The notes beneath the pieces are model-generated. The model did not search any database. It saw only the letters and a list, made by a program, of their open reading frames with translations, and was not told the DNA's origin. The position numbers and the translations under genes were made by a program. A stretch of 64,000 bases of DNA from Candidatus Curtissbacteria bacterium (lineage in GTDB: Bacteria; Patescibacteriota; Microgenomatia; Curtissbacterales; GWA2-41-24), in NCBI GenBank assembly GCA_030647775.1, contig JAUSJC010000005.1, positions 3,911 through 67,910 on the forward strand, given 5' to 3'. Below are positions 30,740-32,997 of this stretch, piece after piece (positions within the stretch are counted from its first letter, which is position 1; the number at the start of each line of letters is the position of its first letter).

Positions 30740-31177
30740 ATGAGTGAACGTAATCCGCCAGGCCAAAAATCAATTAAACCATTTTATGATCCCAGCCCTG
30801 AAGCAATAGCCGCCGCCTTAGCGACAGAAAAACTGCTTTCTCTCGACCAACCAGTCACAGTAAATGGAGAAGCCATAGAAGAAGGTTGGGGAGCTATTAT
30901 ACAGGATAATACACAGAATGTTGAAGATGAAGCGATGGTCAATGCCCTAAAATCGCAAATTAGGACTACCTTATCAACTATACTTAGCCCCAGAGAGTTT
31001 GGCATAATCAGTTTAAGGTTTGGCATCGCAGACGGTAATACGCACACCCTTGAGGAAATCGGCAGAATATACAATGTTACCAGAGAAAGAATTAGGCAAA
31101 TCGAAGCAAGAGCTATGAGTAAATTACGTGCTTCAAAAGACCTTCGAGAATGGTATCGAGACTACTGTCAGTTTTAA
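30740..31177 (+). CDS. small protein consisting of an unknown ~80-aa N-terminus fused to a canonical sigma-70 region 4 (4.1-4.2 HTH)
   Basis: [49 protein letters not shown] is near-identical to region 4.2 of primary sigma factors. Confidence 0.6.
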   Translation: [145 protein letters not shown]

Positions 31178-31209
31178 TAAATTAAGGCCTTGGCCAAAAT
31201 TATGATACA

Positions 31210-32997
31210 ATGACACTTGAAACACTCCCACTAAGACAATCTGCCGCAGACGCAGAACCGAATCTTAGGCCAATAACGCCCGAAGAAGCCGAAGCAGGAA
31301 TTCTAAGCGATCTATTTCAAACAATAGTAAATGCCAGAATCGCGAGGCAAGTCCTTATGTCCAGAAGACTCTCTCCTTCTTGGGCAAAAACAGACAAGCA
31401 AAGTAGACTGCAAGCTCAACAAGCCATTGAAAGGGGTGAAGAATTTAAAGGGTGGGTAGTTCTGCCTCAACGGGTATCTAACATTTCTATTCCGACCGCG
31501 GCATCTATAGTTGAAGCTGGCTATCAAGCATCACTCGAATTGAAAGGAAGATTAATTGAGTCAAAAGTTTCCAATCTTGCCGAACAATATCCAGAAGGAG
31601 CAGAGGTATTTGAACGAATTTTAAAAGAAGCAGCCGATACAACTGTTACTCGATACAGACCACCAACCGGCATTTCGATCATGGATTTTTTTAATGGAAT
31701 CGCCGACCAAAAAACCGGTCCGGGTTTAGCACAGCTAGAAGAAGACGCACGTCGAAAAGAGGCCGAAGCCCTAGCCCAAGCCCGCAGAAATCAAATCAGC
31801 GAGACATTCAGCAAAAATACCGGCCTTGTACTCCATGCAGTTGAACTCCTTTCCAGCCGTATCACACAATCCGGTCTTGATTTTGAAGACGCCGTCTCAG
31901 AGGGCAATATTGGCCTGTTGCAAGCCATAGAACGCTATAATCCGGAAGAAGGAAATTTTTCTAGCTTCGTCTTCCCTAGGATAAGAGGTGCAATTATTGA
32001 TGCCATTCTCAAATACTCCCCTGTCCCTTCAAGCACACTGAGAAAAGCTACTGTTATTTATAAATTCGAAGAAGAATTCCATACCAAAAACGGTAGGAAT
32101 CCATCCGACGAAGAAATAATTGCAGGAACAGGAATTGCCCCAAAAACTCTTGCACAAACTAGAAAAATAATGGATATCAGTCAACATAGCATCGAAGGAC
32201 AAACAGAGATGTATTCTGATGATGCCTTAGATACAGATCGTGAAATAGAACTTGCCGAAAAAGACGAAACAGTACTCCCCGAAGAAAGATTGCTAGCCCA
32301 AGAAGATCTAAATGAGCAAGCTATGAGACAACGAACCGTACGGTTCATATTAGAAGAATTACCCCCAAGAGAATCACAAATCCTGACTATGTACCATATG
32401 GACAATATGACCACCCCACAAATTGCACCCGTGATCGAAGTTTCGGCAAGCAGACTTGTTCAAATCAAAACAAAAGCCGAAAAAAAATTTGCCGCCATCG
32501 CGAAAAGTCTTGATCTGGATTCCAACCTTCAAAGAATTATGGCCAGGCAAACTATGGCTCTTATGGATTATTTAAGGGATATTGGCCTTAGTTATGCAAC
32601 GTATAGAAATTATGAACTCGGAAAAGGCATCAGGTTCAAACATGTTCCCGGCGAAAGGACAATTTTAGTAAACCCGGTACAGCAGGAAATGATTAAAGTC
32701 AGGTTAATTAAAATAGAAGAAGGGGCAACAGAAATAAAAAGACAAAAAAGAAAGAAGCCAAATACTCGGGCAGTGCCAGAAGGACCCATCACCCTAAGAC
32801 ATTTTTTAAGAGATATCGGAATAAGTTATCCCACTTTCATAAGGCATAATCTTGCAGAAGATCTAAAGTTTGCTCATGCACACGGCGCAAAAACAATTTT
32901 GATAGATTCTGATCAACAAGAAATAATTAGGACTCGCTTAGTCCAAAAAAGAATCAGGCCCAGAAAAAGAAAACCCGATCTTCTGGCCGTGCAATGA
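31210..32997 (+). CDS. sigma-70 family RNA polymerase sigma factor with long N-terminal region and a C-terminal tandem-duplicated ~50-aa domain
   Basis: Region 2 (DFEDAVSEGNIGLLQAIERYNPEEGNFSSFVFPRIRGAIIDAI), region 3 and a divergent region 4 (LPPRESQILTMYHM...) are present. After region 4 two repeats follow: LMDYLRDIGLSYATYRNYELGKGIRFKHVPGERTILVNPVQQEMIKVRL and LRHFLRDIGISYPTFIRHNLAEDLKFAHAHGAKTILIDSDQQEIIRTRL. Confidence 0.75.
   Translation: MTLETLPLRQSAADAEPNLRPITPEEAEAGILSDLFQTIVNARIARQVLMSRRLSPSWAKTDKQSRLQAQQAIERGEEFKGWVVLPQRVSNISIPTAASIVEAGYQASLELKGRLIESKVSNLAEQYPEGAEVFERILKEAADTTVTRYRPPTGISIMDFFNGIADQKTGPGLAQLEEDARRKEAEALAQARRNQISETFSKNTGLVLHAVELLSSRITQSGLDFEDAVSEGNIGLLQAIERYNPEEGNFSSFVFPRIRGAIIDAILKYSPVPSSTLRKATVIYKFEEEFHTKNGRNPSDEEIIAGTGIAPKTLAQTRKIMDISQHSIEGQTEMYSDDALDTDREIELAEKDETVLPEERLLAQEDLNEQAMRQRTVRFILEELPPRESQILTMYHMDNMTTPQIAPVIEVSASRLVQIKTKAEKKFAAIAKSLDLDSNLQRIMARQTMALMDYLRDIGLSYATYRNYELGKGIRFKHVPGERTILVNPVQQEMIKVRLIKIEEGATEIKRQKRKKPNTRAVPEGPITLRHFLRDIGISYPTFIRHNLAEDLKFAHAHGAKTILIDSDQQEIIRTRLVQKRIRPRKRKPDLLAVQ

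What the first reader, a model, noticed from the sequence alone, without database searches (positions are those of the whole stretch)
30740..32997. Unusual sigma-70 gene pair: standalone region-4 protein plus a sigma factor with a C-terminal tandem-repeat extension
The 145-aa product of 30740-31177 contains only region 4.2 of a primary sigma factor, nearly invariant ([28 protein letters not shown]), fused to an unknown N-terminus. The adjacent 595-aa sigma factor has recognisable regions 2-4, but its own region 4 is divergent. It is followed by two copies of a ~50-aa domain (32545-32700 and 32790-32940) not normally part of sigma factors. Together this could be a split or decoy region-4 arrangement, or an anti-sigma-like regulator. 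The duplicated tail may be a DNA-binding or polymerase-tethering module.
Basis: partly seen in the sequence, partly recalled or inferred. Interest (0 to 1): 0.6.

Follow-up and report, generated by a model that had tools for sequence, protein, structure and literature searches.

The report
Orphan sigma fragment beside extended sigma
A Curtissbacteria (CPR) genome carries, between two housekeeping genes, a free-standing tail fragment of a primary-type sigma factor next to a rare alternative sigma factor with two extra DNA-binding-like modules fused to its end; the second gene is a real but modest novelty, and the first may be a gene remnant.

Summary
Both ORFs and the tandem repeat are real. 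P1 (30740-31177, 145 aa) is not region 4.2 alone. It is the last ~115-130 residues of a group-1 (RpoD-type) sigma: the last helix of sigma3, region 3.2, and regions 4.1-4.2. It is a database singleton and is absent next to two of P2's three closest homologues; the third is on a contig too short to tell. P2 (31210-32997, 595 aa) is a FliA-like sigma-70-family protein. It has a conserved ~180-aa helical N-terminal module and two ~53-aa C-terminal repeats. The repeats are predicted to fold as beta-helix-helix-beta-hairpin-helix. Their structural matches are mostly weak but consistently MerR/excisionase-type winged HTH DNA-binding domains.

P2 belongs to a very small modular family (~10 clusters among 1.84 billion representatives) with 1-3 repeat copies. 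Several distant members end in a second, RpoD-like sigma4 module. The pair is a ~2.3-kb lineage-specific insertion into a hisS-eamA-rpmE-prfA backbone conserved across Microgenomates. No frameshift can join the two ORFs into one rpoD, and an independent assembly is identical.

Best reading: P2 is an alternative sigma with built-in upstream DNA contacts. P1 is an orphan sigma3.2-sigma4 piece, either a remnant or a trans-acting accessory or competitor. Whether a full rpoD exists elsewhere in the genome could not be checked.

The parts
29757..30692 (+). hisS (311 aa, catalytic core only). Upstream boundary of the insertion. Not truncated relative to its clade.
   Evidence: PF13393 matched 1-308/308 with no anticodon-binding domain. 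About 68 of 80 related Microgenomates hisS genes end within 0-11 codons of the same point.
30701..30730 (+). Promoter-like element upstream of P1 (TTGAAA-18 nt-TAAGAT). The -10-like hexamer ends 9 nt before the ATG.
   Evidence: Consensus scan (the number of sites in the region is not above chance). A -10-like hexamer 4-14 nt before the ATG occurs in 13/51 genes of the window against 4.9% of random positions, and P1 is one of the 13. Inference only.
30740..31177 (+). P1: 145-aa orphan C-terminal fragment of a group-1 (RpoD-type) sigma. It holds the last sigma3 helix, region 3.2 and regions 4.1-4.2. The homologous part is about nt 30788-31138.
   Evidence: Singleton in the protein database, named by NCBI 'sigma factor-like helix-turn-helix DNA-binding protein [Candidatus Curtissbacteria]'.
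31210..32997 (+). P2: 595-aa FliA-like sigma-70-family protein with N- and C-terminal extensions.
31267..31809 (+). P2 N-terminal helical module (aa 20-200). Family-specific, with no Pfam or PDB sequence match.
   Evidence: No Pfam hit. Confidently predicted long helices. 54-56% identical to P0121/P0122, as conserved as the sigma core. Shared by P0241-P0249 and duplicated in P0242 and P0249. No PDB sequence match.
31810..32517 (+). P2 sigma core (aa 201-436: sigma2, sigma3, sigma4).
   Evidence: Sigma70_r2 and Sigma70_r4 above Pfam cut-offs. TIGR02937 89.6 bits (cut-off 42.9). FliA_WhiG 114.9 bits (cut-off 189.6). Best Foldseek PDB hit is B. subtilis SigD, E 2e-8.
32548..32706 (+). Tail repeat 1 (aa 447-499): winged-HTH-like module.
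   Evidence: 66-68% identical to P0121/P0122, the best-conserved part of the protein.
32782..32940 (+). Tail repeat 2 (aa 525-577): winged-HTH-like module. Followed by a basic C-terminal end (KRIRPRKRKP).
32994..33896 (+). eamA-family transporter gene. Downstream boundary of the insertion. Its start overlaps the P2 stop by 4 nt (ATGA).
   Evidence: PF00892. In most relatives eamA follows hisS directly, often with the same 4-nt overlap.

Best explanation
The locus is a ~2.3-kb lineage-specific insertion of two sigma-related genes into the conserved Microgenomates hisS-eamA-rpmE-prfA backbone. It is not a split or frameshifted rpoD.

P2 is the functional centre. It is a complete alternative sigma factor of the FliA-like (group 3) type. 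It belongs to a very rare modular family that adds a conserved helical N-terminal module and 1-3 C-terminal ~53-aa winged-HTH modules of MerR/excisionase type joined by basic linkers.

Inferred mechanism for P2: once sigma2 and sigma4 seat P2 on core RNA polymerase, the tail emerges from the C-terminal end of sigma4 at the -35 element. It then contacts DNA upstream of -35. This would give the sigma a built-in activator-like or UP-element-like extended promoter recognition.

P1 is an orphan C-terminal third of a primary-type sigma (sigma3.2 linker plus a canonical -35-reading sigma4). It was most likely produced by partial duplication or rearrangement at a junction that has repeatedly received sigma genes. 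It is intact, has a genome-typical -10-like element, and may be co-transcribed with P2. If made, it would be a free sigma4 domain able to bind the beta-flap and TTGACA-like DNA. It would act as an accessory or competitor, not as half of a split sigma.

Shown: domain content, repeats, family distribution, insertion, non-conservation of P1. Inferred: DNA binding by the tail, expression and activity of P1.
For: Sigma identity:
- Pfam and NCBIfam assignments.
- The AF2 model of P2 has mean pLDDT 81.5 and matches sigma factors; the best hit is B. subtilis SigD.

Family:
- An exhaustive profile search gave only 11 proteins at E<=1e-30 among 1.84 billion representatives.
- Below those come ordinary ~250-aa FliA-like sigmas.
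- The HMM finds 15 repeat units in the 8 of 11 family proteins scanned that carry the repeat, 1-3 per protein.
- The N-module and repeat 1 are as conserved as, or more conserved than, the sigma core.

Tail fold:
- The tail model has mean pLDDT 81.8. Each repeat is beta-H-H-beta-beta-H.
- Recurring Foldseek hits are GlnR/TnrA/RacA/CarA-N/RdfS/pSK1-Par/TraN winged HTH domains, e.g. 7tea_B probability 0.95, rmsd 3.1.
- Viral-library hits are phage excisionase/AlpA/PrtN/MerR-type HTH proteins. The top hit has E 5.6e-4, probability 1.0, over 134 columns.
- The tail has net charge +15, against -12 for the sigma core.

Insertion:
- hisS is directly followed by eamA in most of 80 related genomes.
- The closest relative, L005, has a complete but different RpoD-like sigma in the same slot.
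- L092 and L093 have P2-family genes between eamA and rpmE.

P1:
- RpoD models align with its aa 34-133, and homology to the L005 sigma starts at aa 17, inside sigma3.
- It is a singleton whose next-best database match is 48% identical.
- There is no P1-like gene next to P0121 or P0241.
- Other short r3+r4 database hits are frameshift artefacts, whereas P1 abuts hisS.
- It has a -10-like hexamer at genome-typical spacing.

Not an artefact: the independent Logan contig L004 is identical over window 29888-34620.
Against: - The fold assignment of the repeats rests on a predicted model. Only one hit reaches significance, and no PDB hit has E<1e-3.
- Pfam HTH_17 and MerR models do not hit any repeat.
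- DNA binding, and its position upstream of -35, are inferred.
- MerR-like folds can also mediate protein binding; CbpM was among the hits.
- Target promoters are unknown.
- For P1, intactness, canonical sigma4.2 residues, a promoter-like element and the 32-nt spacing to P2 argue against a mere remnant.
- Distant family members carry a second sigma4-like module that resembles P1's sigma4 more than P2's own. This favours a functional link.
- The rest of the genome could not be inspected for a full rpoD.
Confidence: 0.5

Rival explanations
1. P1 is a functional trans-acting partner of P2. It would be a detached second sigma4 (with the sigma3.2 linker) that plays the role of the extra RpoD-like sigma4 module fused to the C-terminus of distant family members. 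The two would be co-transcribed and act together on RNA polymerase or promoter DNA. For example, P1 could read a canonical -35-like element while P2's divergent sigma4 and winged HTH modules read other sites.
For: - Same strand, 32-nt gap. P1 has the -10-like element at typical spacing and P2 does not.
- P0242, P0245, P0246, P0249 and others end in an additional sigma4-like module.
- The profile of that module aligns to P1 aa 82-132 (hhalign probability 70%, E 4e-5) but not to P2's own sigma4 (probability 0.1%).
- A related Microgenomates genome encodes a sigma4 + alpha-CTD fusion, so sigma4 is reused as a module in this clade.
- P1's sigma4.2 recognition helix is near-canonical (direct reading).
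Against: - P1 is a singleton.
- P0121 and P0241 have neither a fused second sigma4 nor a P1-like neighbour. P0122 also lacks the fused module, but its upstream region is not assembled.
- P1 scores ~85 bits to RpoD models and only ~9 bits to the fused modules. It derives from a primary sigma, not from that module.
- It begins inside sigma3, not at a domain boundary.
Confidence: 0.22
2. P1 is a non-functional remnant: a recently 5'-truncated copy of a sigma gene that still has an open frame. Only P2 matters biologically.
For: - Singleton with no orthologues.
- Starts within the sigma3 domain, with ~16 unrelated N-terminal residues.
- Lies at a junction where sigma genes and unrelated genes have been inserted in different lineages.
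- Not conserved next to two of P2's three closest homologues.
Against: - No frameshift or stop.
- The Pfam region-4 score (59 bits) is as strong as in working sigmas.
- It has a -10-like element at genome-typical spacing.
- The nearest relative is only 48% identical, so it is not a very recent copy of any sampled gene.
- Small CPR genomes are generally thought to purge dead DNA quickly (general knowledge, not tested here).
Confidence: 0.3
3. P1 is a decoy or competitor. A free sigma3.2-sigma4 would occupy the beta-flap of core polymerase, titrate a sigma4-binding regulator, or sit on -35 elements. This would damp housekeeping transcription in favour of P2 (anti-sigma-like, by mimicry).
For: - Canonical sigma4.1/4.2 of primary-sigma type.
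- Encoded immediately upstream of an alternative sigma.
- Sigma-domain mimicry is an established principle; PhyR is the known example (general knowledge).
Against: - No direct evidence.
- Not conserved.
- No cognate regulator identified nearby.
Confidence: 0.15
4. Assembly or sequencing artefact: a chimeric join or a frameshift creates a false truncated sigma ORF.
For: - Several database 'short r3+r4' proteins are frameshift products.
- The sequence comes from a MAG.
Against: - An independent Logan assembly of run SRR13727527 gives the identical 4.7-kb sequence across hisS-P1-P2-eamA-rpmE.
- hisS ends exactly where it ends in relatives. Only 47 nt separate it from P1, so there is no room for the missing sigma regions.
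- No sigma2-like sequence lies in any frame of the window other than P2.
- The order of P1 and P2 is wrong for a fusion.
Confidence: 0.03

Closest known systems
FliA/WhiG/SigD (group 3, sigma-28-type) sigma factors
   Same: - The P2 core aa 206-427 aligns end-to-end with TIGR02479.
- It has the RIRGAIxDA motif of this group.
- The best structural hit is B. subtilis SigD.
- An ordinary 295-aa FliA-like sigma exists in a related CPR genome, L070.
   Different: - The score (114.9) is below the family cut-off (189.6).
- P2 is more than twice as long, with a ~200-aa N-terminal module and a ~160-aa C-terminal winged-HTH tail.
- No flagellar context.
RpoD / group-1 sigma, C-terminal part (regions 3.2-4.2)
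   Same: - P1 aa 34-133 aligns to the last ~100 positions of several RpoD equivalog models (85-87 bits).
- The sigma4.2 helix is near-identical to the consensus.
   Different: - P1 lacks regions 1.1-3.0 entirely.
- 145 aa.
- Singleton.
Two-subunit sigma SigO-RsoA of Bacillus subtilis (sigma functions split over two polypeptides; listed in PMC10141391)
   Same: - Adjacent genes encoding sigma-domain proteins.
- One of them is small.
   Different: P2 is a complete sigma with its own sigma2 and sigma4, so nothing is missing for P1 to supply. P1 duplicates a domain; it does not complement one.
MerR/excisionase-type winged HTH DNA-binding domains (GlnR/TnrA, RacA, RdfS, AlpA/PrtN; tandem form in TraN of pIP501, PDB 4p0y)
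   Same: - Predicted beta-alpha-alpha-beta-hairpin topology of each repeat.
- Recurring Foldseek hits.
- Tandem arrangement in one chain, as in TraN and a Rhodococcus phage HTH protein.
   Different: - No sequence-level membership: Pfam and PDB profile searches are negative.
- Fused to a sigma factor, which I have not found described (two literature searches on CPR sigma factors returned nothing relevant).
ECF sigma factors with C-terminal extensions (e.g. ECF41/42; review PMC7826278)
   Same: A sigma-70-family protein with an extra domain fused after sigma4.
   Different: By my recollection those extensions are regulatory domains (SnoaL-like, TPR) on group-4 sigmas; I did not read PMC7826278 on this point. 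Here the core is group-3-like and the extension is a tandem DNA-binding-type fold.
Sigma4 + alpha-CTD fusion protein of a related Microgenomates MAG (L029:1740-2876)
   Same: A sigma3.2/sigma4-like segment used outside a complete sigma factor in the same clade. 36% identical to P1 over aa 70-143.
   Different: It is fused to an RNA_pol_A_CTD domain, whereas P1 stands alone.

Membership tests
Sigma-70 family (P2) | Region 2 and region 4 domains above curated cut-offs | tested here: met
   PF04542 54 bits (cut-off 24). PF04545 28.7 bits (cut-off 24.1). TIGR02937 89.6 bits (cut-off 42.9).
FliA/WhiG subfamily (P2) | TIGR02479 score at or above the curated cut-off of 189.6 | tested here: not met
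   114.9 bits. It is the best-scoring subfamily, so P2 is FliA-like but not a member by this criterion.
FliA/WhiG subfamily (P2) | Flagellar/motility (FliA) or developmental (WhiG) regulon context | tested here: not met
   The neighbours are hisS, eamA, rpmE and prfA. Relatives sit between HIT and ychF. Only local context was examined.
RpoD / group-1 sigma (P1) | Full set of regions 1.2, 2, 3 and 4, with the equivalog score above cut-off | tested here: not met
   Only the last ~100 model positions are matched, at 85-87 bits against cut-offs of 500-580. No region-2 sequence lies upstream.
RpoD / group-1 sigma (P1) | Group-1-type region 4.2 recognition helix ([10 protein letters not shown]) | tested here: met
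   Direct reading of the P1 sequence. tblastn with an E. coli sigma70 probe written from memory gave 35% identity over 124 aa, E 4e-14.
Split / two-subunit sigma (SigO-RsoA type) | Each polypeptide lacks a sigma domain that the other supplies | tested here: not met
   P2 contains both sigma2 and sigma4. P1 only duplicates sigma4.
Split / two-subunit sigma (SigO-RsoA type) | The two genes are conserved as a pair | tested here: not met
   No P1-like gene next to P0121 or P0241. Only 68 nt are assembled upstream of P0122, so it is uninformative. P1 is a singleton.
MerR/excisionase-type winged HTH (tail repeats) | Sequence match to HTH_17, MerR or related Pfam models | tested here: not met
   No such hit at E<=10 for the tail or for any of the 15 repeat units. 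No PDB sequence hit.
MerR/excisionase-type winged HTH (tail repeats) | Fold: strand, helix-turn-helix, beta-hairpin wing | tested here: inconclusive
MerR/excisionase-type winged HTH (tail repeats) | Binds DNA | not testable with these tools
   Only indirect support: net charge +15 and basic linkers.
Anti-sigma / sigma-mimic decoy (P1) | Binds core RNAP, a sigma4-binding regulator or -35 DNA in competition with a full sigma | not testable with these tools
   No computation available here. It needs binding assays.

The most novel reading that the evidence does not exclude
A small clade of CPR bacteria may build promoter recognition from detachable parts. In this reading, the FliA-like sigma (P2 family) carries its own tandem winged-HTH 'activator' modules and works with a second, RpoD-type sigma4. 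That second sigma4 is fused at the C-terminus in some members and supplied in trans by P1 here. One holoenzyme would then read a composite promoter through two sigma4-type domains plus upstream HTH contacts. Together with the sigma4 + alpha-CTD fusion seen in a relative, this would point to modular beta-flap-docking adaptor proteins in Microgenomates.
Probability: 0.15. Interest if true: 0.75.

Novelty: new variant of a known kind. Interest (0 to 1): 0.45.

Why it matters
Sigma factors normally read only the -10 and -35 elements. Upstream contacts come from the alpha-CTD or from separate activators. A sigma with its own tandem DNA-binding modules would be a compact way for a tiny, regulator-poor CPR genome to build promoter specificity.

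The architecture is extremely rare, about ten clusters among 1.84 billion representative proteins, and I found no description of it. If P1 is functional, it would be a natural example of a free primary-type sigma4 domain acting as accessory or competitor. If it is a remnant, the locus mainly documents repeated insertion of sigma genes at one housekeeping junction.

Either way, the finding does not overturn current models of transcription initiation.

Tried and rejected
1. Deletion-scar idea (truncated hisS abutting truncated rpoD): rejected. The short hisS without an anticodon-binding domain is the norm in ~68 of 80 related genomes.
2. Frameshift or fusion into one rpoD: rejected on gene order, double stop, different frame, absence of sigma2 sequence, and an identical independent assembly.
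3. P1 as the orthologous remnant of the RpoD-like sigma that fills the same slot in the closest relative, L005: rejected. They are only 27% identical while hisS is 77% identical, and P1's region 4.2 is more canonical than L005's.
4. P1 as a copy of P2's own C-terminal sigma part: rejected. There is no tblastn hit.
5. Other 'standalone r3+r4' proteins in the database as a family: the two examined are a frameshift artefact (P0004) and a probable one (P0015, preceded by 1.5 kb with no called gene).
6. Phage or mobile origin: there are no relatives in IMG/VR, no composition anomaly and no tRNA at the junction. Flanking repeats were not searched. A weak resemblance between the P2 3' end and ancestral hisS 3' ends was judged not significant.
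7. Word-indexed protein search with the 53-aa repeat profile found nothing, so that search was wasted.
8. The metagenome scan only re-found a known contig.
9. PDB profile searches for the repeat and the N-module were negative.
11. Literature searches for CPR sigma factors returned nothing relevant.
12. The promoter and terminator scan of the region was not above chance.
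Full report
**Observation**

The two ORFs exist as described: P1 at 30740-31177 (+, 145 aa) and P2 at 31210-32997 (+, 595 aa). They are separated by 32 nt. P1 ends in a double stop and is in a different frame from P2.

In P1, Pfam finds only Sigma70_r4 (aa 82-131, 59 bits). NCBIfam RpoD equivalog models align P1 aa ~27-34 to 133 with the last ~100 positions of RpoD (85-87 bits). A tblastn probe with E. 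coli sigma70, written from memory and used only as a probe, matches P1 over 124 residues (E 4e-14). It finds no other sigma-like sequence in the 64-kb window apart from P2. P1 is therefore the C-terminal third of a primary-type sigma: the end of sigma3, region 3.2, and regions 4.1-4.2. It is not region 4.2 on an unknown N-terminus.

P2 has Sigma70_r2 (aa 216-268) and Sigma70_r4 (aa 381-424, 28.7 bits against a 24.1 cut-off). Its best subfamily is FliA/WhiG, at 114.9 bits, below the 189.6 cut-off. It passes the general sigma-70 model TIGR02937.

The tandem repeat is real. It spans aa 447-499 and 525-577 (nt 32548-32706 and 32782-32940). The alignment score is 125 against 23.5 +/- 4.5 in shuffles.

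**Not an artefact**

A Logan assembly of run SRR13727527 (L004) is identical to window 29888-34620. hisS ends 47 nt before P1, so there is no room for the missing sigma regions. The gene order (3' fragment first) excludes a frameshift-split rpoD.

**Who else has these genes**

P1 is a singleton in the 5.8-billion-cluster database. NCBI names it 'sigma factor-like helix-turn-helix DNA-binding protein [Candidatus Curtissbacteria bacterium]'. The next-best hits are at most 48% identical. Most are short RpoD-like fragments. The two I examined were a frameshifted gene (P0004) and a probable one (P0015).

P2 has two full-length relatives in the word-indexed search: P0121 (664 aa, 55% identical) and P0122 (621 aa, 46% identical). 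An exhaustive profile search of 1.84 billion representatives gave only 11 proteins at E<=1e-30. Below those the list turns into ordinary ~250-aa FliA-like sigmas.

The top set is modular:
- P0241 is full-length.
- P0243, P0247 and P0248 have the N-module plus the sigma core.
- P0242 and P0246 have the N-module, the sigma core and one tail repeat.
- P0245 has the sigma core plus the tail.
- P0249 has two N-modules plus tail repeats and no sigma core by Pfam.

An HMM finds 15 repeat units in the 8 of 11 family proteins scanned that carry the repeat, with 1-3 copies each. P0121 has three. Against P0121 and P0122, the N-module (54-56% identical) and repeat 1 (66-68%) are as conserved as the sigma core (44-59%) or more so. 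Both extensions are therefore integral, selected parts of the protein.

**What the extensions are**

Neither the N-module nor the tail matches any Pfam model or PDB sequence.

AlphaFold2 models are confident: full P2 has mean pLDDT 81.5, and the tail alone has 81.8. The low pTM (0.36 for P2, 0.45 for the tail) shows that the relative domain placement is uncertain. The N-module is a set of long helices. Each repeat is strand, helix, helix, beta-hairpin, long helix.

The full model hits sigma factors. The best is B. subtilis SigD, followed by sigma70 chains.

The tail model has no PDB hit below E 0.097. The compact, low-rmsd hits are nevertheless consistently MerR/excisionase-type winged HTH DNA-binding domains:
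- GlnR-DNA 7tea_B (probability 0.95, rmsd 3.1)
- TnrA
- RacA
- CarA-N
- RdfS excisionase
- pSK1 Par
- the tandem-domain TraN

In the viral library the top hit is a phage 'HTH DNA binding protein' (E 5.6e-4, probability 1.0, 134 columns). It is followed by many excisionase/AlpA/PrtN/MerR-type proteins.

The tail has net charge +15 with basic linkers, while the sigma core has -12.

I conclude, at moderate confidence, that the repeats are winged-HTH DNA-binding modules. This is a fold-level inference. Sequence-level membership was tested and not met.

**Genomic setting**

I first suspected a deletion scar, because the upstream hisS lacks an anticodon-binding domain. Eighty related Microgenomates loci refute this. 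The short hisS is the norm in this clade.

The same loci show a conserved backbone, hisS-eamA-rpmE-prfA. hisS and eamA are usually adjacent or overlap by 4 nt. In the window, P1 and P2 sit between hisS and eamA, and the P2 stop overlaps the eamA start. The pair is therefore a ~2.3-kb lineage-specific insertion.

Sigma-family genes recur in this neighbourhood only in a Curtissbacteria sub-lineage:
- The closest relative, L005 (hisS 77% identical), has a complete 395-aa RpoD/SigA-like sigma between hisS and rpmE. It is only 27% identical to P1, so it is not P1's orthologue.
- L092 and L093 have the P2-family genes P0249 and P0245 between eamA and rpmE.
- Other inserts at these junctions are unrelated genes.

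The closest P2 homologues, P0121 and P0241, lie in a different conserved slot between HIT and ychF, with no P1-like gene. For P0122, only 68 nt are assembled upstream. There are no relatives in IMG/VR.

**Evidence on whether P1 is functional**

Against function:
- It is a singleton.
- It is not conserved next to P2's close homologues.
- It starts inside the sigma3 domain (homology from aa 17), with ~16 unrelated residues.

For function:
- It is intact, and its region 4 scores as well as in working sigmas.
- The genome rarely uses Shine-Dalgarno sites (5 of 53 genes). Instead, 13 of 51 genes have a -10-like hexamer 4-14 nt before the ATG, against 4.9% of random positions. P1 has TAAGAT 9 nt upstream. 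P2 has no hexamer in that range, which is compatible with co-transcription.
- Distant family members end in an additional sigma4-like module. The profile of that module aligns to P1's sigma4 (hhalign probability 70%, E 4e-5) but not to P2's own sigma4 (probability 0.1%).
- A related genome encodes a Sigma70_r4 + RNA_pol_A_CTD fusion protein. Sigma4 is therefore reused as a module in this clade.

Qualifier: P1 is clearly RpoD-derived (~85 bits) and only weakly similar to the fused modules (~9 bits).

**Mechanism proposed**

P2 is a complete alternative sigma. After sigma2 and sigma4 engage core polymerase and the promoter, the tail leaves the C-terminal end of sigma4 at the -35 element. Its one to three winged HTH modules and basic linkers contact DNA upstream. 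This gives a built-in activator-like or UP-element-like extension of promoter recognition. The role of the N-module is unknown. It occupies the position of regions 1.x/NCR in primary sigmas.

P1 is most likely an orphan product of sigma-gene rearrangement at this junction. If expressed, it is a free sigma3.2-sigma4 able to bind the beta-flap or TTGACA-like DNA. The partner, decoy and dead-remnant readings are given as rivals with their probabilities. None can be excluded without expression or binding data.

**Comparison with known systems**

The core is FliA-like but fails the subfamily cut-off and has no motility context. The pair is not a SigO-RsoA-type two-subunit sigma (PMC10141391), because P2 lacks nothing. 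Known C-terminal extensions of ECF sigmas (PMC7826278) are, as far as I recall, regulatory rather than DNA-binding, and they sit on group-4 cores. I found no description of a sigma fused to tandem excisionase/MerR-type winged HTH modules (literature searches).

**Limits**

- Fold assignments rest on predicted models with mostly sub-significant matches.

**Verdict**

P2 is a new variant of a known kind, from a very rare family. P1 is unresolved between remnant and accessory. Interest is moderate (0.45).

Noticed in passing
window 29757-30692; loci L005-L084: The histidyl-tRNA synthetase here, and in about 68 of 80 related Microgenomates genomes, consists of the catalytic core only (~300-311 aa) with no anticodon-binding domain. 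Only the more distant loci in the set (L051, L068-L072, L074, L076, L078-L082 and L084, among them Woykebacteria and Levybacteria MAGs) carry the extra ~100 residues.
   Followed up: partly
L029:1740-2876: A related Microgenomates MAG (record mislabelled 'uncultured Gammaproteobacteria') encodes a 378-aa protein. It combines an N-terminal Sigma70_r4 domain (aa 58-107) with a C-terminal RNA polymerase alpha-CTD domain (aa 323-364). This is a sigma4/alpha-CTD fusion with no sigma2.
   Followed up: partly
L092:1620-3716 (protein P0249): A 698-aa relative has two copies of the P2 N-terminal module, two winged-HTH repeats by HMM and a sigma4-like end. It has no sigma2/3/4 core by Pfam, so the accessory modules also exist without a sigma factor. 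It lies between eamA and rpmE.
   Followed up: partly
L005:1871-3058: The closest sampled relative (hisS 77% identical) has a complete 395-aa RpoD/SigA-like sigma directly after hisS and has lost eamA. Two different sigma genes were therefore inserted at the same junction in two closely related genomes.
   Followed up: yes
whole window (51-53 gene starts): Shine-Dalgarno-like sequences are rare (5 of 53 genes). About 25% of genes have a TAnAAT-like hexamer 4-14 nt before the ATG, against 4.9% background. This suggests frequent leaderless or very short-leader mRNAs.
   Followed up: partly
window 40848-41279 (+), next to ychF 41304-42392 (-): A 143-aa ORF is convergent with ychF and has a sub-threshold Trp_repressor match (25.9 bits against a 27-bit cut-off). 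It occupies the slot where the genomes of P0121 and P0241 carry their P2-family sigma gene.
   Followed up: no
window 31210-32997: The exact P2 sequence was not returned by the word-indexed protein search (best hit 55% identical). Yet the Logan contig L004 carries a gene call for the identical 595-aa product. This is probably a quirk of the index.
   Followed up: no
window 24939-25022: A single tRNA-Leu(CAA) is the only tRNA or Rfam match in the 64-kb window.
   Followed up: no
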